Assembly: GCF_013167455.1 (NCBI RefSeq)
Contig: NZ_CP038328.1
Direction: 5' to 3' (one strand)
DNA length: 64,000 nucleotides
From: Escherichia coli O157:H7
GTDB lineage: Bacteria > Pseudomonadota > Gammaproteobacteria > Enterobacterales > Enterobacteriaceae
Made by a program: the position numbers and the translations under genes. Positions 2,166 to 52,800 of this stretch are shown piece by piece (the stretch's first letter is position 1; each line of letters opens with the position of its first letter). The notes below the pieces were generated by a model. It did no database searches and was not told the origin of the DNA. It saw only the letters and a program-made list of their open reading frames with translations.

Positions 2166-5070
<2,905 letters not shown>

Positions 5071-5263
5071 TCACAACCCGAAGATGTTTCTTTCGATTCA
5101 TCATCGTGTTGCGAAAATTTGAGAGACTCACGAACAACTCTCGTTGTTCAGTGTTTCAATTTTCAGCTTGATCCAGATTTTTAAAGAGCAAATATCTCAA
5201 ACATCACCCGAAGATGAGTTTTGAGATATTAAGGTCGGCGACTTTCACTCACAAACCAGCAAG

Positions 5264-5339
5264 TGGCGTCCCCTAGGGGATTCGAACCCCTGTTACCGCC
5301 GTGAAAGGGCGGTGTCCTGGGCCTCTAGACGAAGGGGAC
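5264..5339 (-). tRNA. gltT: tRNA-Glu in the 16S-23S spacer
   Basis: Reverse complement GTCCCCTTCGTCTAGAGGCCCAGGACACCGCCCTTTCACGGCGGTAACAGGGGTTCGAATCCCCTAGGGGACGCCA, 76 nt. Confidence 0.97.
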
Positions 5340-5424
5340 GTATCAGTCTGCTTCGCAAGACGCCTTGCTTTTCACTTTCTATCAGACAATCTGTGTGAGC
5401 ACTGCAAAGTACGCTTCTTTAAGG

Positions 5425-6966
<1,542 letters not shown>

Positions 6967-7097
6967 AAAAGTTTGATGCTCAAAGAATTAAACTTCGTAA
7001 TGAATTACGTGTTCACTCTTGAGACTTGGTATTCATTTTTCGTCTTGCGACGTTAAGAATCCGTATCTTCGAGTGCCCACACAGATTGTCTGATAAA

Positions 7098-7110
7098 TTG
7101 TTAAAGAGCA
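7098..7110 (-). promoter_or_regulatory. boxA antitermination element in rrn leader
   Basis: Minus-strand TGCTCTTTAACAA between the promoters and 16S. Confidence 0.75.
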
Positions 7111-7144
7111 GTTGCGACGCGGCTTTCAGCTCACTGTCGCGAGG

Positions 7145-7322
7145 TGGCGTATATTACGCTTTCCCGCTACAGAGTCAAGCATTTATTTTTGCTTTCTCTG
7201 TCGGAATTCTCAGGAGAACCCCGCTGACCCGGCGGCGTGTTTGCCGTTGTTCCGTGTCAGTGGTGGCGCATTATAGGGAGTTATTCCGGCCTGACAAGAG
7301 GAAATTTAAAATAATTTTCCGA
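7145..7322 (-). promoter_or_regulatory. rRNA operon tandem promoters P1 and P2 with upstream AT-rich UP element
   Basis: Minus strand: P1 TTGTCA (7297-7292) and TATAAT (7275-7270) preceded by AGAAAATTATTTTAAATTTCCT; P2 TTGACT (7178-7173) and TAATAT around 7156-7151. Confidence 0.8.
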
Positions 7323-7342: not shown

Positions 7343-8200
7343 TCAGCCTAAAACTGCCAGTTTTTCGAGCGTTTCGAAGCCGTAACGCTGTAAAACGGGC
7401 AATAATTGTTCAGCTTCTGGCGTCATTGCCATACAAAAGGCAATATTCGCATCGGCAGATTTTGCATCCGGGGCTTCATGTTCTAACAACCAGGCCGTTC
7501 GGCGAGCAATCGCTGCGCCAGAATCCACCAGCCGGGTTCCCTCTGGCAGCACTTGTAACAGTTCTTCTTGTAGTAGAGGGAAATGGGTGCAACCCAATAC
7601 AACGGTATCTGGCGGCTCTTTCATTCTTAACCACGGGCGTAGGATACGTTTTAGTGCATCCAGAGAAACATCTTCGCCATGCAGCTTCGCTTCAGCCAAC
7701 TCAACCATCTCTGCCGAGCCCAGCATTTCTATCTGGCATTCATTAGCGAAACGCGCGATCAGCTCATGAGTATAAGAACGTTTAACTGTTCCGCGGGTTG
7801 CCAGTAATCCGACAATGCCATTTGCCGTCAGACGTGCAGCAGGTTTAATCGCCGGCACGACACCAACAACCGGGAAGTCGAACTTTTCGCGTAATGCAGG
7901 AAGTGAAACGGTACTGGCAGTGTTGCAAGCGACCACAGCCAGCGCAAGGGGATAACGTTCTTGCACCGCGGTGACAATTGCCACCACTCGCTCAACAATA
8001 AACGCTTCGCTTTTTTCGCCATACGGGAAAGCGACGTTATCGAAAGCATAAATGTAATGGAGATCCGGTAAGAGATGCCGGATCTCGTCATAGACCGACA
8101 ACCCACCGACGCCGGAGTCAAACACCAGCACGGTGGGACGTGGTTCAGAAGGTGTAGCTGCCAGACAAGGTGTATTCCCGTCCTGCAGTTTGGTAGCCAT
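7343..8200 (-). CDS. murI: glutamate racemase
   Basis: ORF track 7343..8212; start placed at ATG 8200 ([20 protein letters not shown]), recognised MurI N-terminus, 285 aa. Confidence 0.93.
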
Positions 8201-9989
8201 AGACTGTCTCATAATCTTTGTCGAACAGGTTGGCTATTTTACCACGAACTGTCAGGTGAGAGGTGACCGGATACGCAACCGCAAGATCCCACAAGCTCAC
8301 ACCGCCCATTTTAACGGTTTGATAAGGATAAGATGAGTAATCCTTATCATAGCGAGTGCCTAAATACTGATAAGTAATACCCCAGTCGAAGTCATACAAC
8401 TGCCAGTCGAGCTGGTATTTCACCTGCTGTTTAGCACGGCGTAACAACGGCGTGTCGGTAATTGCATTGCGCGCATCGACATAATCATAACTCACAGTAT
8501 GCGTCAGTGGTCCGGTATCAAAATTGGCGGTCGCCTCGACGCCCTTAATCCGCGCTTTCCCTTCGTTGTAATATTTCAGGGTGTGATCATCATAATCGAT
8601 CAAGTCACTGACATCGTTACGATATCCGGAAATACGCCAGTTCACCCCAGCGGTTAAGCCTTCAAACGCGCCTTCCCACTGTTTGCTTTTCTCCGGGTCC
8701 AGATTCGGATTTCCGTAGAAGCCATACAGTTGCCCCAGATTTGGTGCCTTATAAGATGTCCCGTAGGAAGCAATGAAGCGATAACCTTCGATGAATTCCC
8801 AACCGGCGCTGGTTTGCCAGGTTCCATGACGACCAAACTGTGAGTTATCGTCGCTGCGTGCTGCGCCTTCAAAGGTAAAATCGCCGACTTGTTGCAGCCC
8901 GGTCAGATAGATGCCGGTATTACGTTGATCATATCCATCCTTAACATAAGCTGTGCCCGGTGCCGTGCTCTGCTTCTGCCAGTCAACACCCGCACCAACA
9001 TTACCGTGGCCAATGATGATGTTGTTTGCCCACTGGACGGTGTATTGCTTCATCTCATCGAGCGTCGCCGACGAATCATAACGACCATAATGGGGATCGT
9101 AGTTGTAATCTTTGCTATGGCTATAGCTGGTAATGAGTTGTGATTTAATCAGTTCGCCGTTATATCGCAGCCCGGCGTCCCAACTTTGACTATAGAGTTT
9201 ACGGGTATCGACCAATGGTGAACCCGGAGAATAATACGCGTCATAATTGGTACGGTTATCATAGCCATAGCCGCGCACAAAGCCGCTCCAGGCATCAGTA
9301 AAGTTATGCTCCAGCGCGCCATAAAGCGTTTTACTTAAAAAACCATCGTTATCTGGCTGCGCTTGCGTTCCGGTATTACCATAGGCAACAACATCATAAC
9401 CATGAGTATGGGCATAATCGCCCAACAACGTTACTCGTGTCTTATCCCCCAGTTGTTGCTGTGTAGAGACATCATAGTTTTGATAACTATTGCTTCCCCA
9501 CCCTGCTGAAATTTCCGTTCCGGGTTCATCGCGCGTCGTGATGATATTCACCACCCCACCTATTGCATCGGAACCATAAACGGCGGAGCGTGGCCCACGG
9601 ATATATTCAACACGCTGGACAAGCGCAATAGGGAACTGGCTAAGGTCGGCAGAACCACTCCCCCCCGCCAGATTCAGGCGTACGCCATCAATTAACACCA
9701 ACACATGACTGGCATTTGTACCGCGAATAAAAATAGATGAGAGCTGACCTGAACCGCCGTTTTGGGTGATATCGACGCCCGGAAGACGGCGCAGCACATC
9801 ATTAACCGAGGTCGACTGCCAGCGGTCGATATCCTGACGCGTCACAACGGTGGTTGGTGCAAGCACAGTGCTGCGCGGCTGTTCAAAACGGTTAGCAGTA
9901 ACGACGAGAGTATCCGGGCTGGTATCCTGTGCCCAAGCGGAAAAGGCTGTGACAGAACACGCCGTCAGCAGCGAAGCTTTTTTAATCAT
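8145..9989 (-). CDS. btuB: TonB-dependent vitamin B12 outer membrane transporter
   Basis: ORF track 8145..10034; start placed at ATG 9989 ([10 protein letters not shown], signal peptide), ends ...TLSGSYTF; 3' end overlaps murI start. Confidence 0.95.
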
Positions 9990-10229
9990 TGTAAAGCATC
10001 CACAATAGAAGAAGGATGCCGCAGGTTTCATCAATATTACGCGATGATGAGAACCAGATGCGACGTTGGCCGGCAGGTCTTCGGGCTTGGAGGGGTATCT
10101 AAGATACTAAGAGATGATGACTTCCCACCGAATGGCAGTGTCCGCATAACGCAATCATCGCACCTTTCCTTACCGCTGCGCGTCAGCTCCAGATTCGCAC
10201 TGGATTCCCTATTAACTCACAGGACCGGC
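9990..10229 (-). ncRNA. btuB leader containing cobalamin (adenosylcobalamin) riboswitch
   Basis: About 240-nt 5' leader, minus strand GCCGGTCCTGTGAGTTAATAGGGAATCCAGTGCGAATCTGGAGCTGACGCGCAGCGGTAAGGAAAGGTGCGATGATTGCG..., recognised as the btuB leader. Confidence 0.85.
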
Positions 10230-10357
10230 AAGTGGATGCTACAGGTTGTAACAAGTTACTGTCCAGACGTAGCTCACAAATAGGAATTCATCAAGATCTG
10301 GACATCTGATGAGCAATCCCTACAATCGCCGCGTACTTTAATTTTTCAGGATACATC

Positions 10358-11458
10358 ATGACCCCCGAACACCTTCCAACAGAACAGTATGAAGCGCAGT
10401 TAGCCGAAAAAGTGGTACGTTTGCAAAGTATGATGGCACCGTTTTCTGACCTGGTTCCGGAAGTGTTTCGCTCGCCGGTCAGTCATTACCGGATGCGTGC
10501 GGAGTTCCGCATCTGGCACGATGGCGATGACCTGTACCACATCATTTTCGATCAACAAACCAAAAGCCGTATCCGGGTGGATAGCTTCCCCGCCGCCAGT
10601 GAACTCATCAACCAGTTGATGACGGCGATGATTGCGGGTGTGCGTAATAATCCCGTTCTGCGCCACAAGTTGTTCCAGATTGATTACCTCACCACGCTGA
10701 GTAATCAGGCGGTGGTTTCCCTGCTGTACCATAAAAAGCTGGATGATGAGTGGCGTCAGGAAGCGGAAGCCCTGCGCGATGCACTGCGCGCGCAGAATCT
10801 GAATGTGCATCTGATTGGTCGGGCAACGAAAACCAAAATCGCGCTGGATCAAGATTACATCGACGAGCGTCTGCCGGTCGCAGGGAAAGAGATGATCTAT
10901 CGTCAGGTAGAAAACAGCTTTACCCAGCCGAACGCGGCGATGAATATTCAGATGCTGGAATGGGCGCTGGACGTAACCAAAGGCTCAAAAGGCGATTTAC
11001 TGGAGCTGTACTGCGGCAACGGTAACTTCTCATTAGCGCTGGCGCGCAATTTTGATCGGGTATTAGCCACCGAAATCGCCAAGCCATCAGTCGCTGCCGC
11101 GCAATACAACATTGCCGCTAACCATATTGATAACGTACAAATTATTCGTATGGCGGCAGAAGAATTTACTCAGGCGATGAATGGCGTGCGCGAGTTTAAC
11201 CGCCTGCAAGGGATCGACTTAAAGAGTTATCAGTGCGAAACCATTTTTGTCGACCCACCTCGCAGCGGTCTGGACAGTGAAACCGAGAAAATGGTGCAGG
11301 CGTATCCACGTATTCTGTATATCTCCTGCAATCCGGAAACGTTATGCAAAAATCTGGAAACATTAAGCCAGACGCACAAGGTCGAACGTCTGGCTCTGTT
11401 TGATCAGTTCCCCTACACGCACCATATGGAGTGCGGCGTATTACTGACCGCGAAGTAA
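10358..11458 (+). CDS. trmA: tRNA (uracil54-C5)-methyltransferase
   Basis: 366-aa [35 protein letters not shown]. Confidence 0.95.
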
Positions 11459-11463
11459 AACCC

Positions 11464-11489
11464 ATGCCGGATGCGCCAGCATCCGGCAT
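11464..11489. repeat. REP-like palindrome between convergent trmA and yijD
   Basis: ATGCCGGATGCGCCAGCATCCGGCAT perfect palindrome. Confidence 0.7.
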
Positions 11490-11497
11490 GATACCGA

Positions 11498-11857
11498 TTA
11501 CTCAGCAACTTCCTGCTTACGGTTACGCATCTTCGCGCCAATCCAGAACACCATAATGACGGAGAGTACTGCCGGGAAGAAGTTAGAGCCGATATCCGGA
11601 TATTCCGCACGAACTACCGTGCTGTACAGCAGTACGCCGAGAATAAAACAGGCAGCTGCCAGACCCGGCAAGCCTACCGGCATGGTGCGATTAAGATAAC
11701 GTTGATGCAGGCAGTAAACCGTCAGCACCAGGGAAATAATCGGGAATACAGAAAATGGCACAATGGAGCTAAACAGCGCTGCGAAAGTACCATTAATCGA
11801 TAAGCCAGCAACCAACGCCAGCAGCAGCGTACCTCTATCTTGATTTGCTTGTTTCAT
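11498..11857 (-). CDS. yijD: inner membrane protein YijD
   Basis: 119-aa hydrophobic [32 protein letters not shown]; synteny downstream of fabR. Confidence 0.9.
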
Positions 11858-12504
11858 TACTCGTCCTTCACATTTCCCGGAATAATTGCGGTTTTCTCTT
11901 GTTCACGGCGATACCAGTAATAAGCCCCTTTCGAAATCATTCGCAGTTGCAGTACCAGTCGCTCTTCTAATTGCCGACGTTGTTCAACGCCGACGTCCAA
12001 CGCCTCGGCACCCGCACTGAAGACAATTGTCACCATTGCTTCGGCTTGCGCTTCAGTAAACGCACGCGGCATATGGTTTTCGAGTTCCAGATAGTCCGCA
12101 AGTTCCGCAATGAAGTGCTGAATTTCACGCGCAACGGCGGCACGAAACGCAGCGGAGGTGCCGGAGCGTTCCCGCAATAATAACCGGAAGGCGTTAGGAT
12201 TATTACCGATGAACTCCATAAATGTGGAGACCGAGGTGCGGATCACACTCCCGCCTTTGGCGATACGCTGACGCGCCTGGCGCATGAGTTGGCGTAGCAT
12301 TAAACCGCTCTCATCAACCATGGTCAGACCCAGTTCGTCTACGTCTCGGAAATGCCGATAAAAAGAGGTGGGAGCAATGCCCGCTTCACGCGCCACTTCA
12401 CGCAAACTCAGGCTGGCGAAGCTGCGTTCAGCACTTAATTGGCTAAATGCGGCTTCCACCAGCGAACGGCGGGTTTTTTCTTTTTGTTGCGCTCTTACGC
12501 CCAT
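11857..12504 (-). CDS. fabR: TetR-family repressor of unsaturated fatty acid biosynthesis FabR
   Basis: ORF track 11857..12600; start placed at ATG 12504 ([20 protein letters not shown]), 215 aa. Confidence 0.9.
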
Positions 12505-12610
12505 CACGATGTCTGAATCCTTGCCAAAAGTACTGCTGGCACTATACCAGAGAATGAACATACTGGATTGCTCCAGTATTGTGAATGAACGGTAACGCAA
12601 TAAAACATAT

Positions 12611-13927
12611 TTACTGCAATTCTTTGGCCGGTTCTTTTACGTACAACAACGCCAACATCGACAGCAACGTGCCTCCACCCAGATACCACGCCGGAGCCGT
12701 CAAACTATCCAGCAACACGATGGATTGCGTAGCGAAATATTGAGCAAAACCGCCAAAGATTGCCACACCAATGCTATAAACCAGCGCAAAACCCAATGCC
12801 CGAATCCGTTTCGGCAACAGTTCAGAGATCAACAACATCACTGGCACACCGCCAAGCGTGGTAAAGCTGACCATCACGAAAACCACCGTCAGCAACATGC
12901 CTGGGCTTGGGTAATTCACCAACAGCCAGAATGACGGCCAGCTACAGATCAGCACCATCACACGGGAGATTAAAATCAGCTTTTTACGCCCGACCGAATC
13001 GCACAACATCCCCACCAGCAGCGCACCCACAAACGTAATAACGCCCGCCAGTAACATCGCTGCATGAGAATAGTTTTGGTTCATTCCTAAATACTTCGCC
13101 GCCCATGTACCGTAATAAAAGAGGGAGATATAGGTTGCGACTGTACTACCAATAGCGAGCAAGATACCGTTAGCGATAGTCGCTTTATGTTGCATAAGTA
13201 AGGAGAAGGCGCTTTCGCTGGCTGCGGCCTTCTTATTATGTGCTGGCTCAGGAACATCATTTTCCAGACTCAAACGCAACCAACAGCCGACAGGCGCTAA
13301 TAACACGCCAATAAAAAACGGCACACGCCAGCCCCATTCAGCCATGACGGTTTCTGAACCGGTCGCAAAGGGCAGCCATGCACTTAAACCTAAAGCGACA
13401 ACACCTCCAAAAGTTGTTGCCAGGCCTTGAGTCGCCAGTGACCAACTGCTGTAAAAACCGCGACGATTTGCCGGAGCTGATTCAACCAACAAAGACATTG
13501 AGGCACCGACTTCGCCTCCTGCCGCAACGCCCTGAATTAGACGCGCTAGCACCAGCGTCGCGGTTCCCCAATAGCCCGCCGTTTCATACGTCGGTGCGAT
13601 GCCGATCATCAGTGTACCAAGACTCATCAGCGCAATGGTGAACACCATCGCGGGTTTGCGTCCGAAACGATCGGCCCAGGCCCCCACAATAATGCCGCCG
13701 AGCGGGCGCATAAAAAAGCTCACGCCGAAAGTGGCAAACGCCAGCAGTAGCGCGACGTTTTTATCTGCACTGGGCGGAAAAAATAGCGTGCTGATATAGA
13801 CCACAAAAAAGTTGTAAACGCCAAAATCAAAAAATTCGAGCGCATTGCCAAACGCCGAGGCAAAAATCACCCGCCTGCCGCTGGGCTTTTTCTTCACACT
13901 CACGGTTTCATTTACGATCGCCGTCAT
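12611..13927 (-). CDS. MFS transporter, metabolite:H+ symporter (MHS)-like
   Basis: 438-aa ORF with multiple TM segments and a GWRVPFF motif as in ProP/KgtP-type MFS proteins; to my recollection absent from the K-12 fabR-sthA interval. Confidence 0.85.
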
Positions 13928-13969
13928 TCCATGTTCCTTGCCAAAAAGTGTTGTTGTGTGTTGTTTTAT

Positions 13970-15136
13970 TTATTGCAGCCAGGCTTCTACCAGTGCGCCC
14001 CAGTAGCTGCTTGCCGGGACCAGACTTGCATCGTTGAAGTCGTAACCCGGGTTATGCACCATGCAGGAACCTTCCCCGACATCGCCATTACCGAATAACA
14101 GGAAACCGCCTTTGGGTTGGGCTTCCAGCATGAAAGAGAAATCTTCACTGCCCATCAGGGGCTTGATGCCAAACTCGGCCCGATCTTCACCAAACGTTTT
14201 ACACGCCACCTGCCAGGCGAAGCGCGCCATCTCCTCGTCATTTACTAATACTGGTGTACCGTTAACATGCGTAACCTCAGCCGTAGCGCCAAAGCTGGCA
14301 GCCTGGGCTTGTGCCAGAGCAGGAATACGGGTCAGAAGAAGTTGTCGGGTATCGCGGCTAAGAGAGCGGACGCTGATTTTCATCTCAGCACTGTCAGGAA
14401 TGACGTTAGCCGCCTCACCCGCAACAATGCTGCCGACGGTAATTACCGCCGCTTCCAGCGGATCGACATTGCGTGACACAATGCTTTGTAATGCGGTGGT
14501 GATATGTGCGGCAACTAGCACCGGATCGATGGCTTTGTGCGGGATCGCACCGTGTCCGCCACAACCACGAACTGTAATATGGAACTGATCCATTGACGCC
14601 ATCAGTGCCCCTGGCTGGAAATAAAACTTACCCACCGGCAGACCGGGCATGTTATGCATGCCGAAAATGACATCGCAGGGGAAATGATCAAAAAGCCCCT
14701 CTTTAACCATGATCTCACCGCCATTAATCATCTCTTCCGCAGGCTGGAAGATAAGACGTAACGTGCCGTTAAAACGGCGGGTTTCGGCAAAATAACGCGC
14801 GGCCCCCAGCAGTATGGTGGTATGCCCGTCATGCCCGCAGGCGTGCATTAAACCAGGATGTTTACTGGCCCAGGGCTTGCCACTATTTTCATAAATCGGC
14901 AGCGCATCCATATCCGCCCGCAGGCCAATACTTTTCTCTCCGTCGCCCACTTTTAACGTGGCCACTATCCCCGTCGTCGCCAGTCCTTGCTCTACTTCAT
15001 AGCCCCACTGACGCAGCTTTTCCGCAACCAAAGCACTGGTTTTAAATTCTTGTAATCCCAGCTCCGGGTTTTCGTGGATCTGATGGCGGATCTCACGCAG
15101 TTCTTCCTCAAACCCTCGAATATAGTGTTCGATCAT
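13970..15136 (-). CDS. M20-family amidohydrolase (hippurate hydrolase / N-acyl-amino-acid amidohydrolase-like)
   Basis: 388-aa ORF with HACGHDGH metal-binding motif typical of peptidase M20D; directly upstream and co-oriented with the MFS gene. Confidence 0.85.
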   Translation of the reverse strand: MIEHYIRGFEEELREIRHQIHENPELGLQEFKTSALVAEKLRQWGYEVEQGLATTGIVATLKVGDGEKSIGLRADMDALPIYENSGKPWASKHPGLMHACGHDGHTTILLGAARYFAETRRFNGTLRLIFQPAEEMINGGEIMVKEGLFDHFPCDVIFGMHNMPGLPVGKFYFQPGALMASMDQFHITVRGCGGHGAIPHKAIDPVLVAAHITTALQSIVSRNVDPLEAAVITVGSIVAGEAANVIPDSAEMKISVRSLSRDTRQLLLTRIPALAQAQAASFGATAEVTHVNGTPVLVNDEEMARFAWQVACKTFGEDRAEFGIKPLMGSEDFSFMLEAQPKGGFLLFGNGDVGEGSCMVHNPGYDFNDASLVPASSYWGALVEAWLQ

Positions 15137-47339: not shown

Positions 47340-47402
47340 GTGATGAAGTTCCCTGGGCTTGGTCGGTGAAATGTCAGGCACCAGAGTAAACACTGTGTTA
47401 AT

Positions 47403-47426
47403 GGACGTCAATACATCTGGACATCT
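47403..47426. promoter_or_regulatory. MetJ operator (met boxes) in divergent metB / metJ control region
   Basis: Minus strand AGATGTCC AGATGTAT TGACGTCC, three tandem met-box-like octamers. Confidence 0.7.
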
Positions 47427-47615
47427 AAACTTCTTTGCGTATAGATTGAGCAAATCCCAAATAGCCGTTAAAATTATATGCATTATCACGCCGACAGGTG
47501 CATTACACGATGTCACGGTAACGCCTGTACGGTAAACTATGCGGGTTTACGGTCAGTACCCACATAAATTGTGTGGTCTGGTCTCAATTTATTGACGAAG
47601 AGGATTAAGTATCTC

Positions 47616-47933
47616 ATGGCTGAATGGAGCGGCGAATATATCAGCCCATACGCTGAGCACGGCAAGAAGAGTGAACAAGTCAAAAAGATTACGGTTTCCA
47701 TTCCTCTTAAGGTGTTAAAAATCCTCACCGATGAACGCACGCGTCGTCAGGTGAACAACCTGCGTCACGCTACCAACAGCGAGCTGCTGTGCGAAGCGTT
47801 TCTGCATGCCTTTACCGGGCAACCTTTGCCGGATGATGCCGATCTGCGTAAAGAGCGCAGCGACGAAATCCCGGAAGCGGCAAAAGAGATCATGCGTGAG
47901 ATGGGGATTAACCCGGAGACGTGGGAATACTAA
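47616..47933 (+). CDS. metJ: methionine repressor MetJ
   Basis: ORF track 47571..47933; start placed at ATG 47616 ([56 protein letters not shown]), 105 aa. Confidence 0.95.
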
Positions 47934-47992
47934 AGCGGAAAAGAGCGGCGCGGAGTTAACCAGCCGCTTTTTTCATACAAGGACGTTTAACG

Positions 47993-48601
47993 ATGAAAAT
48001 CAGGCTACTGATCCTCAGCCTGCTGGTTTCTGTGCCTGCCTTTGCCTGGCAGCCGCAAACTGGCGACATCATCTTTCAAATCTCTCGCTCATCGCAAAGT
48101 AAAGCGATCCAACTGGCGACCCATTCCGATTACAGCCACACCGGTATGCTGGTGATGCGTAACAAAAAGCCCTACGTTTTTGAAGCGGTCGGCCCGGTGA
48201 AATACACCCCGCTCAAGCAGTGGATTGCCCATGGTGAAAAGGGCAAATACGTTGTTCGCCGCGTTGAAGGCGGACTGAGTGTTGAACAACAGCAAAAACT
48301 GGCGCAAACGGCGAAACGTTATCTCGGCAAACCGTACGATTTCAGCTTCTCATGGAGCGACGATCGCCAGTACTGTTCGGAAGTGGTGTGGAAGGTTTAT
48401 CAGAATGCGCTGGGAATGCGTGTGGGCGAACAGCAGAAGTTGAAAGAGTTTGATCTCAGCAACCCGCTGGTCCAGGCGAAGCTCAAAGAACGCTACGGCA
48501 AAAATATTCCGCTTGAGGAAACGGTGGTCTCACCACAAGCCGTTTTCGATGCGCCACAACTCACCACGGTTGCCAAAGAATGGCCGCTGTTTTCGTGGTA
48601 A
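47993..48601 (+). CDS. yiiX: DUF830-family protein YiiX (permuted papain-like fold, signal peptide)
   Basis: 202-aa ORF MKIRLLILSLLVSVPAFAWQPQTGDIIFQISRSSQSKAIQLATHSDYSHTGMLV. Confidence 0.9.
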   Translation: MKIRLLILSLLVSVPAFAWQPQTGDIIFQISRSSQSKAIQLATHSDYSHTGMLVMRNKKPYVFEAVGPVKYTPLKQWIAHGEKGKYVVRRVEGGLSVEQQQKLAQTAKRYLGKPYDFSFSWSDDRQYCSEVVWKVYQNALGMRVGEQQKLKEFDLSNPLVQAKLKERYGKNIPLEETVVSPQAVFDAPQLTTVAKEWPLFSW

Positions 48602-48604
48602 TGG

Positions 48605-48706
48605 ATGATGAAAAAAATAATTCCCGCCGTAGTCTGTTTGTTGCTTTGTAGTTGCACGACCTTTCCGCAAGCTGTCGCTCCGGTAAACGGTGATGCCTCC
48701 AATTAG
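48605..48706 (+). pseudogene. 5' stub of a lipoprotein-like gene, interrupted by the IS1-like element after codon 28
   Basis: ATG 48605 encodes MMKKIIPAVVCLLLCSCTTFPQAVAPVN (KK, hydrophobic stretch, Cys) ending exactly at the IS boundary 48688; the last 5 codons and the stop lie inside the IS left inverted repeat. Confidence 0.3.
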
Positions 48707-48745
48707 TTGAATTAAGGATATAATACTCGCTTTTAAGGATGTTTC

Positions 48746-49018
48746 ATGGTCACAGTTAACCTTCATTGTCCCCGTTGCCAGTCCGTTCAGGTTTACCGTC
48801 GCGGGCAGAACCCCAAAAGACATGATCGATTCCGCGGCCGTGACTGTCACCGGGTATTTCAGCTCAGTTACTGTTACGAGCCCCGTAAACCGGGAGTTAA
48901 AGACCAAATCGCTGAAATGGCTTTCAACGGTGCCGGGGTTCGCTATACTGCCCGTACGCTGAAAATCGGCATTAATACAGTCATCCGAACTTTAAAAAAC
49001 TCTCGCCACGAAGAATAA
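48746..49018 (+). CDS. insA: IS1-family InsA (zinc-finger/HTH transposition regulator)
   Basis: 90-aa ORF MVTVNLHCPRCQSVQVYRRGQNPKRHDRFRGRDCHRVFQL...GINTVIRTLKNSRHEE; CxxC...CxxC motif; A-run (TTAAAAAACTC) at its 3' end like the IS1 programmed frameshift site. Confidence 0.85.
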   Translation: MVTVNLHCPRCQSVQVYRRGQNPKRHDRFRGRDCHRVFQLSYCYEPRKPGVKDQIAEMAFNGAGVRYTARTLKIGINTVIRTLKNSRHEE

Positions 49019-49452
49019 CGTCATCCCCGGTCGCTCATGCTGATGTGGCACTCATCTGCAAACTTAGTCAGCAATGGAGCTTTGTCGGCAGTAAAGCGCG
49101 ACAGCACTGGCTCTGGTACGTGTACAACACGAAAACTGGTGGTGTTCTGGCCTACACTTTTGGCCCCCGGACTGATGAAACCTGTCGTGAATTGCTGGCG
49201 CTGCTTACCCTTTTACCATCGGCATGTTGACCACTGACGAATGGGGTAGTTACGCTAGAGAGTTACCAAAGGAGAAGCATCTGACTGGTAAGATTTTTAC
49301 TCAGCACATTGAGCGTAACAATCTGACCCTGAGAACCCGAATCAAACGTCTGGCCCGCAGAACCATCTGTTTCTCGAGTTCTGTAGAACTTCATGAAAAA
49401 GTCATCGGTGCTTTTATCGAAAATATATGTTCTACTAATTGGAGTCATCACC
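49000..49452 (+). pseudogene. insB: IS1-family insB transposase reading frame, interrupted
   Basis: InsB-like segments split over two frames (49045..49230 ...QWSFVGSKARQHWLWYVYNTKTGGVLAYTFG; 49224..49538 MLTTDEWGSY...TQHIERNNLTLRTRIKRLARRTICFSSSVELHEKVIGAFIE); the second frame has no stop inside the element and reads through into flanking DNA. Confidence 0.6.
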
Positions 49453-49593
49453 CTTCTGATGAGCTTTCCTTGGATGATTACCAGACTGAATACACAGCCA
49501 AAGATTTTTACCTCATTCTGCTCTTTTTTCTCAAATGACATATATTATATTTTACATCATATTCATAGGCATATGACATTCCCCCGCCCCCCA

Positions 49594-49830
49594 TTATGTC
49601 ATTGTGGGTTGATGTTGGGCTTTCATAAAAAAATACATCTTTTTTGAACTAGCATTAATTATATTTACTTTATATATTAAAATATTTTCTCCATCTGGAA
49701 ATATTTTAGCCACACAATATAAAGCAGCTAAATCCGAATTACTTAAAAATATATTGTCATCACTCATAACTCCAGCCATTAAATGACTGGAGACTAAAGC
49801 AAGGAAATAACAACATTGTATTGCCTTCAT
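49594..49830 (-). CDS. small hydrophobic-N-terminus protein immediately downstream of rhs; candidate cognate immunity protein
   Basis: ATG at 49830, 1 nt after the rhs TAA (49832-49834), GGGAG about 10 nt upstream; 78 aa MKAIQCCYFLALVSSHLMAGVMSDDNIFLSNSDLAALYCVAKIFPDGENILIYKVNIINASSKKMYFFMKAQHQPTMT; AT-rich like the toxin tip. Confidence 0.6.
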   Translation of the reverse strand: MKAIQCCYFLALVSSHLMAGVMSDDNIFLSNSDLAALYCVAKIFPDGENILIYKVNIINASSKKMYFFMKAQHQPTMT

Positions 49831-49831
49831 T

Positions 49832-52800
49832 TTAATTACTCCCTTGCCTGATAATTGTAACTCCATTCCCTTTAGCTTTGGGATTATATTTTAGATAGGT
49901 GTTATTTGGTGTTCCCAAGTAACTACTGCATTCTTTTTTTCCCATTCCATTCATATAAGAATTCGTTAAATCTTTGCTTGAAAAATTTAGACTATCATAA
50001 ACATCATTTTCTTTTGTTACTTTATTTCCTTTATCGTCAGAGTAAAAACCGTGAGTGTGATAATCGCCTACTCTCTCTGAACCTTCAGGGCATTTTATAT
50101 TTCGCAAGTCTACACTATCATTATCATTTGAACTTATCGGATTCATGGGGAAATATTCACCTTGCTTCTTACATATTAGTCCACCATATTCTTTATTCTC
50201 GTTAATTGATTCTCCATTACACATTGCCAATGCAAATATTCCAATATCATCTATATTTTTTGATTTAAATTCATATAATCCTAATGGATCCATGCCATTC
50301 ACCGGGCTCAGCGGATATGTATACAGGTTCCATCCCCCCTTCAGCCCAATCGGATCCTGAGTGATATACCTCCCCTGCAGCGGGTCATAATAGCGGTGGC
50401 GGTTGTAATACAGGCCGGACTCCTCATCATACTGCTGCCCCGGCAGGCGGATAAGCTGCTGCAGCTGATGCGGGTTCTCTTCATTCAGCAGGTTGCCCCA
50501 CTCATCGTATTCTGCGCACCATTCTGTTGCCCCTTCCTTACTGATAAGGGCCAGCGGCAGGCCGCGATGGTCGCAGTGGTACAGGTGGATTTTTCGCGCC
50601 GGCGTGTATACCGGGTCCATCTGGCTTTGCATCTGCGCCACAGTCAGGCCGCACGATGCCAGCCAGCGGCGGCTTTCCTCACTCACCCGGTCAGCCAGGA
50701 TTTCACTTTCCAGCCGGTCGAGCATCTGCACCAGCACCGGCGGGAACACCACACTGCCACCGTCTTCGCCGCCGGACTGCTGAAGCGCATCCGCCAGGCT
50801 GCGGCGCTGCGTTTTCGCCAGCTCACCGGTGGCGGTTTCAACCCTGATGAGTGGCGTGAAGCTCCCCGGCTGATAAATCGTCTGGATGCGGGTTCTGTCG
50901 TTCTGTATTGTGGTCAGCCGGTCGCCGTCCCAGCCGTACCAGGTCACTTGCGGTTTCCGTGACAGCGACATCCAGCCCGTCAGGTCCCGTTCACGTCGCC
51001 ACACCCGTTTTGCCACCCTGCGGCCCAGCGGGTCGTAAAGATAGCGGCTTTCGACCAGCGGCTCTTCATATTGTGTCCGCGTGTAGTGCACCAGCCGGTG
51101 CTGACTGTCGTAATGGTACCGGTGAGTCCGCTCATCATCCGTGCGGATAACCCCTTCCGGGATGAGGTCGGTTTTCTCTGTCAGCCTGCCGTGACGGTCA
51201 TACCAGTAAAGATAGTGCGCGTCACGGGCGATACGGTTATCCGGCCACATGCTGAGGGTGCTGTCCGGGTGCAGCTCCGGGTCGGGCAGGCGGTTACCTG
51301 CCGGGTCCGTGGCATACGGGATGCGGATATCCAGATTCGCTGCGGTGGTGTGAACGCCGGTCAGCCTGCCGGAGTCGCTGTAGCTGTAACTCCGGGTCTG
51401 GCGCGGGCTGCTGATGCGGATGAGTTCGCCGTTGTCGTTCCAGGTGTAATCGCGGTCATACTGCAGGCTGTTCAGGTGCTGGCTCTGTAACTGCCCGGCA
51501 GGGGTATAAGCGGTGGTGAGTTCATAACGGCCGAATCTGCGCAGCGTTTTCCGGTGCAGGCGGTCGCGGGTGAAATCCACCAGCGGTGTGTCGCCGAGCT
51601 TCATGCCTGCCAGCCAGCCGCTGCCATAGGTCAGCCATTCCACGGCGGGCAGGCTGTCCGGTATACAGCGGTTCGCCAGCCCCTGCGCGTTGTAAGCGTG
51701 TCTGGTCTCATGCTGCCAGAGCAGTGCTTCCGTCTGCGGGTGATGCACCGTCTGACGCTCACCGGTCAGCCGGCCTTTCTCATCATACCCGTAATGCACC
51801 GTCACCCGGTGCCCTTCGCTGATATGGCTGATGTCTGTCAGCCAGCCGCGTTCGTCATACTGCCAGCGCTCTGCGGTTTCACCCTTCACGGTGCGGTGCG
51901 TGAGGCGGTCTGCTTCGTCATAGTGCCAGTGGGTGACCAGCCCCTCATCCTCGCTGCGGATAAGTTTGCCGGTCAGGTCGTGGTGATAACGCTGTGTGCG
52001 GCCGTCAAAGCCGGTTTCCTGTATCAGCCGGTCGAGTACATCGTAACGGAAGGTGGTGTGGCTGCCGTTTTCACTGGTCAGGCGGATGACCCGTCCGGCA
52101 GCATCGTATTCCATACTGCGCGTCAGACCGCCCTGCGTGGTACAGATGGCTTTTCCCCACGCATCGTACTGTGTCCCGTTTCTGCTGCCGTCCGGGGCAA
52201 TGACGGTGGTCAGGTCACCGGCGGCGTTGTATTCATACCGCGTTTCATGGCCCTGCGTGTCTTTCACGGCAATTAACTGTCCACGGCTGTCGTATGCGCG
52301 GTACTGACTCAGCCCTTCCTCGCGGTGCACCGCCGTCATCTGCCCGAAGCGGTCATGGTCATAACGGGTTACATAACCGGAACAGTCGGTGAAGCTCAGC
52401 AACTGACCGTAACGGCTCCACGTCATGGTTTTCCGGCTGCCGGTGGCATCTTCCGTTGCGCAGGGTAAGTCACTGTGTGGATTATCATAACGGTAGCGGG
52501 TGATATCGCCGTCAGGGGCAGTTTCCTGAATCAGACGGCCCCATTCATCATATTCCCGGCGTATTTCCAGCCCGTCAGGCCCGGTGGCTGACGTTAACTG
52601 GCTGTGGTGGTTATAGTAAAACGCCGATGCCCTGCCATCCGGCGTGGTGATGCGCGTGATGAGGCCCGTCACCACATCCGGGCTGTATTCTGTTGTCCTG
52701 CCTGCGGCATCCGTCTGTGCCCTGAGCCTGCCCACCGCGTCAAACTGACTCTGCGTGACGCTGCCGTCCGCGTGTTCCTTTTTCACCACCCGCTTCAGCC

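What the first reader, a model, noticed from the sequence alone, without database searches (positions are those of the whole stretch)
48605..48706. Lipoprotein-like gene start truncated exactly at the IS boundary
Four nt after the yiiX stop an ATG opens MMKKIIPAVVCLLLCSCTTFPQAVAPVN, which has the shape of a secretory or lipoprotein signal peptide. The reading frame is cut by the IS1-like left end at 48688/48689 and terminates 5 codons into the IS. This may be the 5' end of a gene destroyed when the IS or the whole island arrived.
Basis: seen in the sequence. Interest (0 to 1): 0.35.

Follow-up and report, generated by a model that had tools for sequence, protein, structure and literature searches.

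The report
IS-truncated stub of a lipoprotein gene

Summary
An ORF at 48605-48706 starts 3 nt after the yiiX stop and encodes a lipoprotein-type signal peptide. It leaves ancestral DNA at 48688/48689, the first base of a 764-bp IS1H-like element, and stops 5 codons into it.

E. coli C, the B-lineage strain BLR(DE3), E. fergusonii, a cryptic Escherichia, Klebsiella, Phytobacter and Enterobacter all carry an intact 207-208 aa TIGR02117/DUF2459 gene between yiiX and rpmE. Its first 87 bp match the stub.

In the window, 550 bp (codon 28 of the 207-aa numbering to 7 bp past the stop) are replaced by 5,440 bp of IS1H plus Rhs island. No target-site duplication flanks the IS, so this was a deletion or replacement, not a simple insertion.

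Of 5,426 complete E. coli genomes, 2,174 share this exact junction and 288 keep the gene. About 2,960 (K-12 type) lack gene and stub.

I found no evidence that the stub functions. The result is ordinary, and interest is low.

The parts
47993..48601 (+). yiiX, an exported permuted papain-like enzyme (Peptidase_C92). It is the upstream partner of the lost gene and probably shared an operon with it.
   Evidence: ORF. NCBIfam PRK10030 scores 358 bits against a cut-off of 216. RefSeq annotation.
48602..48688 (+). 87 bp of ancestral DNA: a 3-bp spacer plus codons 1-28 of the TIGR02117/DUF2459 lipoprotein gene (signal peptide, lipobox Cys and 11 mature residues).
   Evidence: Colinear with E. coli C L001:4202-4288, and the homology ends at 48688. 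Identical, 87 of 87, to the 5' end of the intact gene of strain 4314.
48605..48706 (+). Chimeric 33-codon ORF: 28 ancestral codons followed by GDASN and a stop read from the IS left end.
   Evidence: The exact sequence is deposited as ABV18848.1 'putative lipoprotein'. No Pfam or NCBIfam family passes its threshold.
48689..49452 (+). IS1H-like insertion sequence of 764 bp, now defective. Inverted repeats lie at 48689-48711 and 49430-49452, and the insA-like ORF at 48746-49018. No target-site duplication: left flank CCGGTAAAC, right flank CTTCTGATG.
   Evidence: Inverted repeat I1. IS1 transposase HMM hits on two ORF fragments. RefSeq labels it 'IS1 / IS1H family transposase, frameshifted'. Flanks read.
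49594..49830 (-). dsORF-f3, the small ORF after the rhs gene and a likely immunity-type gene. It is shortened in this strain.
   Evidence: ORF. RefSeq calls it 'RHS element protein dsORF-f3', frameshifted in O157:H7 and 324 bp intact in other strains.
49832..54016 (-). rhs gene of 1,394 aa. It is the main cargo of the island that replaced the lipoprotein gene.
   Evidence: ORF. RefSeq 'rhs element protein RhsC' in a record that is 100% identical over the segments I queried (annotation). The yiiX/priA position is a catalogued Rhs locus (PMC2935791; PMC3032704).
54017..54128 (.). Right-hand end of the island (the rhs upstream region). Homology to genomes without the island resumes at 54129.
54129..54388 (-). 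The rpmE terminator hairpin (CAGGCACAAAAAAAGCGCCGTGCGGCGCTTTTTT) and rpmE (54176-54388). This flank is shared by all three locus types.

Best explanation
The ORF is a non-functional 5' remnant of an ancestral gene. The ancestor of Escherichia, like related Enterobacteriaceae, carried metJ-yiiX-[TIGR02117/DUF2459 lipoprotein gene]-rpmE. The lipoprotein gene started 3-6 nt after the yiiX stop, and I infer the two were co-transcribed and translationally coupled. In one ancestral E. coli chromosome an Rhs toxin island entered the short spacer between that gene's stop and the rpmE terminator. The island carried an IS1H copy at its downstream end. An IS1H-dependent event then removed everything between the IS left end and codon 28 (207-aa numbering) of the gene. 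That event was either an adjacent deletion by intramolecular transposition or a recombination between two IS1H copies. What remains is promoter-proximal DNA, the start codon, the signal peptide, the lipobox and 11 mature residues, fused in frame to 5 codons and a stop from the IS inverted repeat. The catalytic domain, which begins at about residue 36 and holds His44 and Cys176, is gone. The allele then spread by descent and by homologous recombination with breakpoints in or at the end of yiiX, and now occupies about 40% of complete E. coli genomes, including O157:H7. Shown here: the identity of the intact gene, the exact breakpoints, the missing 3' part, the missing duplication, the single origin and the ancestral state. 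Inferred: the order of events, the role of the transposase, the operon structure and the lack of function.
For: Breakpoints: E. coli C 4289-4838 (550 bp) is replaced by window 48689-54128 (5,440 bp). Intact gene: TIGR02117 scores 225 bits against a cut-off of 131, and DUF2459 scores 157 bits against 27. It evolves under purifying selection, with dN/dS of 0.07-0.17 between E. coli strains and E. fergusonii. Ancestral synteny yiiX-gene-rpmE: E. fergusonii, and Klebsiella, Phytobacter and Enterobacter. The cryptic Escherichia contig shows metB-metJ-yiiX-gene but has no rpmE hit before it ends. Not a simple insertion: no 8-10 bp duplication flanks the IS. By contrast, strain 8600 has an IS1A in the intact gene with a 9-bp duplication (CGAGGCGGG) and keeps both gene halves. 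Single origin: the left junction is in 2,174 genomes and the right junction in 2,176. No genome has the reciprocal junction or an uninterrupted copy of the IS right flank elsewhere. Neutral behaviour of the stub: among island carriers the stub differs by at most 1 in 87 and the defective IS by at most 1.7%, while the last 209 bp of yiiX differ by up to 9.6%. Lipoprotein character: the lipobox Cys is at least 90% conserved across 44 family members.
Against: No intermediate survives in 5,426 genomes, neither an intact gene with the island downstream nor an IS1H with a duplication inside the gene. The order of events and the involvement of transposase are therefore inferred and not observed. The present IS copy is frameshifted, so it cannot have acted in its current form. 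Absence of function rests on weak negatives. The catalytic domain is missing. The stub is no better conserved than the dead IS. Text searches of the supplements of one Sakai ribosome-profiling study of intergenic ORFs found no match.
Confidence: 0.92

Rival explanations
1. The stub survives as a working mini-gene. It is translated after yiiX, lipidated at Cys17 and cleaved by signal peptidase II. The product is a 17-residue lipopeptide (CTTFPQAVAPVNGDASN) with some membrane role.
For: The start codon, the close coupling to the yiiX stop, the n-region, the h-region and the lipobox are all intact. The ORF is unbroken in all six island-carrying sequences inspected, and one variant changes only the second ATG to ATA. 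It is carried by about 40% of complete genomes. One genome project annotated it as a putative lipoprotein.
Against: Its conservation matches that of the adjacent frameshifted IS, so nothing needs explaining beyond recent common descent. No family signal was found. Text searches of the supplements of the Sakai ribosome-profiling study of intergenic small ORFs found no match. In strain WL297 the stub was cut 5 bp further by an ISAs1. The tail residues come from an IS inverted repeat by accident.
Confidence: 0.04
2. The replacement happened in one step by illegitimate recombination when the island arrived. The IS end would then be only the accidental edge of the incoming DNA, and no transposase-mediated deletion took place.
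For: No intermediates exist. The IS copy is defective in every genome inspected.
Against: The left break coincides to the base with the first nucleotide of the IS inverted repeat. That is the signature of transposase-made junctions and is unlikely for a random break. The right break falls within 7 bp after the lost gene's stop, which fits a prior insertion in the spacer followed by an IS-end deletion.
Confidence: 0.1
3. The ORF is a chance reading frame in ordinary intergenic DNA, or the long gene of E. coli C is a later gain built onto this DNA.
For: K-12 and about 55% of genomes have no gene at this position.
Against: K-12-type genomes lack these 87 bp entirely. The full gene sits at the same position in E. 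fergusonii and three other genera, with 62-68% protein identity and conserved flanking genes. The family is widespread in Proteobacteria and beyond, with invariant residues.
Confidence: 0.01

Closest known systems
TIGR02117 / DUF2459 (PF09601) family protein of E. coli C, the B-lineage strain BLR(DE3) and E. fergusonii (e.g. WP_000720774.1, B7LUR7_ESCF3)
   Same: The first 27-28 codons and the 3-bp spacer after yiiX match, 86-87 of 87 bp. The genomic position is the same, directly after yiiX and facing rpmE. The signal peptide and lipobox are the same.
   Different: The window has only residues 1-28. The whole DUF2459 domain (residues 36-196, with His44 and Cys176) is missing, and five IS-encoded residues are added.
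IS1-mediated adjacent deletions and IS-bounded gene remnants (classical IS1 biology, from my own knowledge)
   Same: The junction lies exactly at the IS terminal repeat. No target duplication is present. One side of the target gene is lost and the IS is retained.
   Different: The IS here is the divergent IS1H type, now frameshifted, and forms the end of an Rhs island. No experimental or intermediate evidence exists for the deletion step.
Rhs locus between yiiX and rpmE/priA (locus 11 of Jackson et al. 2009, PMC2935791; rhsW7 of E. coli W and EcolC_4081 of Crooks, PMC3032704). RefSeq product names such as 'dsORF-f3' are consistent with the RhsF element of Zhao & Hill 1995, a link I make from memory.
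   Same: Same position, same rhs gene, same downstream small ORF and same single IS1H copy.
   Different: In the parts of those papers I searched, the locus is described relative to K-12, which has neither gene nor stub. I found no mention of a resident gene being destroyed. Zhao & Hill 1995 could not be read.
YiiX (PDB 2if6) and other circularly permuted NlpC/P60-type papain-like hydrolases, such as the T6SS effector TseH (6v98)
   Different: Sequence similarity to YiiX is not significant (hhalign probability 11%). Foldseek found nothing. No activity is known. None of this domain survives in the window.

Membership tests
Bacterial lipoprotein signal peptide (signal peptidase II substrate, PROSITE PS51257-type) | Positively charged n-region followed by a hydrophobic h-region | tested here: met
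   MMKK followed by IIPAVVCLLL.
Bacterial lipoprotein signal peptide (signal peptidase II substrate, PROSITE PS51257-type) | Lipobox [LIVMFWSTAG]2-[LIVMFYSTAGCQ]-[AGS]-C at positions 15-35 | tested here: met
   LLCSC with the Cys at residue 17. It matches a PS51257-style pattern that I wrote from memory. Only 9 of 1,089 ATG starts in the window match. Cys at position -2 is unusual.
Bacterial lipoprotein signal peptide (signal peptidase II substrate, PROSITE PS51257-type) | Lipobox Cys conserved in orthologues | tested here: met
   C16 is at least 90% conserved in 44 family members. Klebsiella has LLYGC, Enterobacter LLCGC and Phytobacter LLYGC.
Bacterial lipoprotein signal peptide (signal peptidase II substrate, PROSITE PS51257-type) | Actual lipidation and globomycin-sensitive cleavage | not testable with these tools
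   This needs labelling or mass spectrometry.
TIGR02117 / DUF2459 protein family | Scores above the family HMM cut-off | tested here: not met
   The stub gives no hit. The intact E. coli C protein scores 225 bits against 131 (TIGR02117) and 157 against 27 (PF09601, residues 36-196). The stub ends before the domain begins.
TIGR02117 / DUF2459 protein family | Conserved His44 and Cys176 dyad | tested here: not met
   Both residues lie in the deleted 543 bp. The window therefore holds a remnant of a member, not a member.
TIGR02117 / DUF2459 protein family | Orthologous position and DNA colinearity with a bona fide member | tested here: met
   Window 47964-48688 aligns with E. coli C 3566-4288. 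The stub is 86-87 of 87 identical to the 5' ends of intact genes.
IS1 family insertion sequence (IS1H type) | About 768 bp with terminal inverted repeats beginning GGTGATG | tested here: met
   764 bp. The arms at 48686-48711 and 49430-49455 are 88% complementary.
IS1 family insertion sequence (IS1H type) | InsA and InsB' transposase reading frames | tested here: inconclusive
   NF033558 hits of 83 and 57 bits on two fragments fall below the 100-bit whole-protein cut-off because the frame is broken. The zinc-binding domain passes (30 against 28). RefSeq annotates 'IS1/IS1H family transposase, frameshifted'.
IS1 family insertion sequence (IS1H type) | 8-9 bp target-site duplication from simple insertion | tested here: not met
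   The left flank is CCGGTAAAC and the right flank CTTCTGATG. An IS1A in the same gene in strain 8600 shows the expected 9-bp duplication. The absence indicates a later deletion or recombination and does not exclude the family.
Permuted papain-like (NlpC/P60-type) hydrolases, for the intact protein only | Fold similarity to solved members | tested here: met
Permuted papain-like (NlpC/P60-type) hydrolases, for the intact protein only | Profile-level sequence homology to YiiX/C92 | tested here: inconclusive
   hhalign gives probability 11% and E 0.0027, aligning SHGWHTG with HSDYSHTG.
Permuted papain-like (NlpC/P60-type) hydrolases, for the intact protein only | Hydrolase activity dependent on Cys and His | not testable with these tools
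   No experimental data were found. Searches for DUF2459 and TIGR02117 returned only a classification paper.

The most novel reading that the evidence does not exclude
The chimeric 33-codon ORF is still translated by coupling to yiiX and is processed into a 17-residue triacylated lipopeptide with an IS-derived tail. It would then act as a new small membrane lipoprotein, carried by about 40% of E. coli genomes, rather than being inert. A related reading is that repeated loss of the YiiX-partner hydrolase is adaptive and not neutral. The gene is absent from about 55% of genomes, replaced by the Rhs island in about 40%, and hit by a separate IS1A in strain 8600.
Probability: 0.05. Interest if true: 0.4.

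Novelty: new member of a known kind. Interest (0 to 1): 0.15.

Why it matters
The practical value is mainly for annotation. A 33-aa 'putative lipoprotein', also labelled 'conjugal transfer protein' in UniRef, should be marked as the 5' fragment of a TIGR02117/DUF2459 pseudogene in the many E. coli genomes that carry the yiiX-rpmE Rhs island.

It also shows that this Rhs island did not land in empty intergenic DNA, as a comparison with K-12 suggests. It destroyed a conserved gene.

Finally, it shows that yiiX ancestrally had a downstream partner with a related permuted papain-like fold. That partner is intact in E. coli C and in the B-lineage strain BLR(DE3), and absent from K-12. This gives a simple genetic handle on two uncharacterised exported hydrolases.

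Tried and rejected
- **RNA families.** Rfam found no RNA family on either strand of 47400-54400.
- **Promoters and terminators.** The scan over 47500-49900 found no more sites than shuffled sequence gives.
- **Other ORFs.** The antisense ORFs 48493-48702 and 48530-48907, and the minus-strand ORF 49263-49541, have no family hits.
- **Translation evidence.** Text searches of the supplements of the Sakai ribosome-profiling study of intergenic ORFs (PMC5597208) found no match for the peptide, for neighbouring gene names or for 'lipoprotein'. This is a weak negative.
- **Literature.** The original RhsF paper (PMC176749) is not held. The 2025 'RhsF/RhsFI' EHEC paper concerns a different locus (ECs0604, S-loop 44) and was set aside.
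- **Intermediates.** No genome has the IS1H right end joined to the rest of the gene. No genome has the IS right flank uninterrupted or at another locus. The counts of left and right junctions match, 2,174 against 2,176.
- **Origin of the K-12 state.** I tried to derive the 13-bp K-12 filler (TACGACCAAAATT) from the other two locus types. Only a 'CAAA(A)TT' resemblance to the island's last bases appeared, which is too short to interpret.
- **Selection on the stub.** There is too little variation to test, at most 1 difference in 87 bp.

Full report
**1. What is in the sequence**

The window is E. coli O157:H7-type. The segments I queried around the locus are 100% identical to strain PV15-279.

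The local gene order is metB (-), metJ (47571-47933), yiiX (47993-48601), and then the ORF in question at 48605-48706. The ORF reads MMKKIIPAVVCLLLCSCTTFPQAVAPVNGDASN.

- Its N-terminus has two lysines, a hydrophobic stretch and LLCSC.
- It fits a PROSITE-style lipoprotein pattern that I wrote from memory. Only 9 of 1,089 ATG starts in the 64-kb window fit that pattern, and two of those are this ORF's own ATGs.
- At 48689 the sequence becomes GGTGATGCCTCCAATTAG..., an IS1-type terminal repeat that pairs with 49430-49452.
- The element is 764 bp long. Its ORF fragments hit the IS1 transposase model. RefSeq calls it an IS1 or IS1H family transposase, frameshifted.
- Codon 29 of the ORF begins at 48689, so GDASN and the stop come from the IS.

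**2. What the ORF once was**

The 289 bp ending at 48688 match 5,424 of 5,426 complete E. coli genomes. Only 2,465 of these match beyond the yiiX stop.

In E. coli C the match continues into a 207-aa gene annotated as a 'TIGR02117 family protein'. The gene lies between yiiX and rpmE.

- BLAST of that locus against the window gives two blocks. E. coli C 3566-4288 aligns with window 47964-48688, and 4839-6709 aligns with 54129-55999.
- So 550 bp of E. coli C are replaced by 5,440 bp in the window. The 550 bp run from codon 28 (207-aa numbering) to 7 bp past the stop.
- The 5,440 bp consist of the IS, a short AT-rich stretch, dsORF-f3, a 1,394-aa rhs gene and 112 bp upstream of it.
- The 3' 543 bp of the gene are nowhere in the window.
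- The intact protein scores 225 bits against TIGR02117 (cut-off 131). It scores 157 bits against Pfam DUF2459 over residues 36-196.
- The stub ends before that domain starts, which is why it hits no family.

**3. Which state is ancestral**

The order metB-metJ-yiiX-DUF2459-rpmE-priA is found in E. fergusonii ATCC 35469, where the protein is in the same 90%-identity cluster. It is also found in Klebsiella spallanzanii, K. oxytoca, Phytobacter diazotrophicus and an Enterobacter, at 62-68% protein identity. A cryptic Escherichia (85% identity) shows metB-metJ-yiiX-gene, but its contig has no rpmE hit before it ends.

Between E. coli strains and E. fergusonii the gene evolves with dN/dS of 0.07-0.17. 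The lipobox cysteine is at least 90% conserved in 44 family members from many phyla. His44 is invariant, and His41 and Cys176 are nearly so.

The intact gene is therefore the ancestral state, and the stub is derived from it.

**4. How the truncation happened**

A simple IS1 insertion duplicates 8-9 bp and leaves both halves of the target. Strain 8600 shows exactly this in the same gene. It has an IS1A of 768 bp, a 9-bp duplication (CGAGGCGGG) and both gene halves.

In the window the flanks are CCGGTAAAC and CTTCTGATG, and the distal part of the gene is gone.

- The left break coincides to the base with the IS end.
- The right break lies within 7 bp after the lost gene's stop, just before the rpmE terminator.

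The simplest history has two steps. First, the Rhs island, with IS1H at its downstream end, entered the spacer between the gene and the terminator. Second, an IS1H-dependent event deleted from the IS left end into the gene. That event could have been intramolecular transposition or recombination with a second IS1H copy inside the gene.

I could not separate these two versions, because no intermediate exists in the collection:

- the left junction is in 2,174 genomes and the right junction in 2,176;
- no genome has the reciprocal junction;
- the IS right flank occurs only at this locus.

A one-step illegitimate replacement remains possible. It does not explain why the break sits exactly at the inverted repeat.

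**5. Population picture**

| Locus type | Complete E. coli genomes (of 5,426) | Examples |
|---|---|---|
| Gene kept | 288 | E. coli C, BLR(DE3) |
| Stub plus island | 2,174 | O157:H7, O111, O103, E24377A, W, ATCC 8739 |
| Neither gene nor stub (K-12 type) | about 2,960 | K-12, with 13 unrelated bases (TACGACCAAAATT) in their place |

Among island carriers the last 209 bp of yiiX differ by up to 9.6%. The stub differs by at most one base, the IS by at most 1.7% and the right flank by at most 1.5%.

So the stub shares its history with the island. The event happened once, and the allele spread partly by recombination with breakpoints in or at the end of yiiX. The stub's conservation equals that of a dead IS, so there is no sign of selection on it.

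**6. What the lost protein was**

An AlphaFold model built on 44 homologues is confident (pLDDT 90.9, pTM 0.87).

- Foldseek found nothing.
- This agrees with a published classification of DUF2459 as papain-like with a Cys-His dyad (PMC10318531).
- It also agrees with the His-before-Cys order of the conserved residues.
- A profile comparison with YiiX is only suggestive (probability 11%).

The residue after the lipobox Cys is Thr or Ser. By the E. coli +2 rule this predicts outer-membrane sorting, which is an inference. The ancestral locus thus held two adjacent exported enzymes of related fold, and only the first survives here.

**7. Does the stub do anything?**

It keeps its start codon, its position next to the yiiX stop and a complete signal peptide. 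A 33-aa prolipoprotein could therefore be made. One genome project annotated it as a 'putative lipoprotein'.

Several things count against function:

- It has no catalytic domain.
- Its tail is an accident of the IS repeat.
- It is no better conserved than the IS.
- In strain WL297 it was trimmed further by an ISAs1.
- Text searches of the supplements of the Sakai ribosome-profiling study found no match.

I put function at about 4-5%.

**8. Comparison with what is known, and verdict**

The Rhs island at yiiX/rpmE-priA and its single IS1H copy are catalogued (PMC2935791; PMC3032704). RefSeq product names such as 'dsORF-f3' fit the RhsF element of Zhao & Hill 1995, a link I make from memory. That paper could not be read.

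IS-bounded gene remnants and IS1 adjacent deletions are textbook phenomena. The small new points are three:

- the 'putative lipoprotein' is identified as the 5' fragment of a DUF2459 gene;
- the island is shown to have destroyed a resident conserved gene;
- the lost gene is seen to be a fold relative of its neighbour yiiX.

This is a correct observation with a correct interpretation, and biologically it is ordinary. Interest is 0.15, and I class it as a new member of a known kind.

Noticed in passing
window 47993-48601 (yiiX), most strongly 48393-48601: yiiX is unusually polymorphic within E. coli. Nucleotide identity falls to 90.4% in its last 209 bp between strains that share the same downstream island. 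dS is 0.39-0.55 with dN/dS of 0.02-0.06, which exceeds the E. coli to E. fergusonii dS for the same segment (0.29-0.32). Divergence collapses right at the yiiX stop codon. The cause is not explained.
   Followed up: partly
window 47957-47963, compared with L001:3433-3565: The metJ-yiiX spacer is 59 bp here but 183 bp in E. coli C and K-12. Those strains carry a 133-bp block of REP-like palindromes (a BIME) that the window lacks. In E. coli W (KO11FL) an IS621 sits in that spacer.
   Followed up: partly
L004:3202-3214 (K-12-type genomes): K-12-type genomes have 13 bp (TACGACCAAAATT) between the yiiX stop and the rpmE terminator. These bases match neither the intact gene nor the island, apart from a short CAAA(A)TT resemblance to the island's last bases. 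All three locus types diverge at the same two points. How the K-12 state arose is unresolved.
   Followed up: partly
window 49594-49830 (-): dsORF-f3, the small ORF after rhs and a probable immunity gene, is shortened in this O157:H7 sequence. RefSeq marks it 'frameshifted'. It is an intact 324-bp gene in strains 357900, W and 98224.
   Followed up: no
window 49263-49541 (-): A minus-strand ORF starts in the AT-rich DNA right of the IS and reads into the IS right end after about 30 codons. This mirrors the stub on the left. It has no Shine-Dalgarno sequence and no family hit, so it may be chance or a second truncated gene start.
   Followed up: partly
L087 (E. coli WL297) 4972-7151: This is a secondary rearrangement of the same locus. 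An ISAs1 element and a group II intron maturase fragment replace the last 5 bp of the stub and the left part of IS1H. The rhs core is also largely deleted.
   Followed up: no
L088 (E. coli 8600) 3450-4217: The intact DUF2459 gene was inactivated independently by an IS1A simple insertion with a 9-bp duplication (CGAGGCGGG). It is a useful contrast to the window's junction.
   Followed up: yes
protein cluster of the 33-aa ORF (P0001-P0004): Public names for the stub disagree: 'putative lipoprotein', 'Conjugal transfer protein' (UniRef) and 'hypothetical protein'. The same 90% cluster also lists a 405-aa JGI 'predicted acetyltransferase', which looks like a clustering oddity.
   Followed up: no
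L091 (E. coli CE2050) 8145-14764: At the same locus some strains carry a longer Rhs array, with extra partial rhs C-terminal tips, ybfB, an ISAs1 (H-repeat) and a Sel1-repeat gene. The island's interior varies while both of its junctions stay fixed.
   Followed up: no
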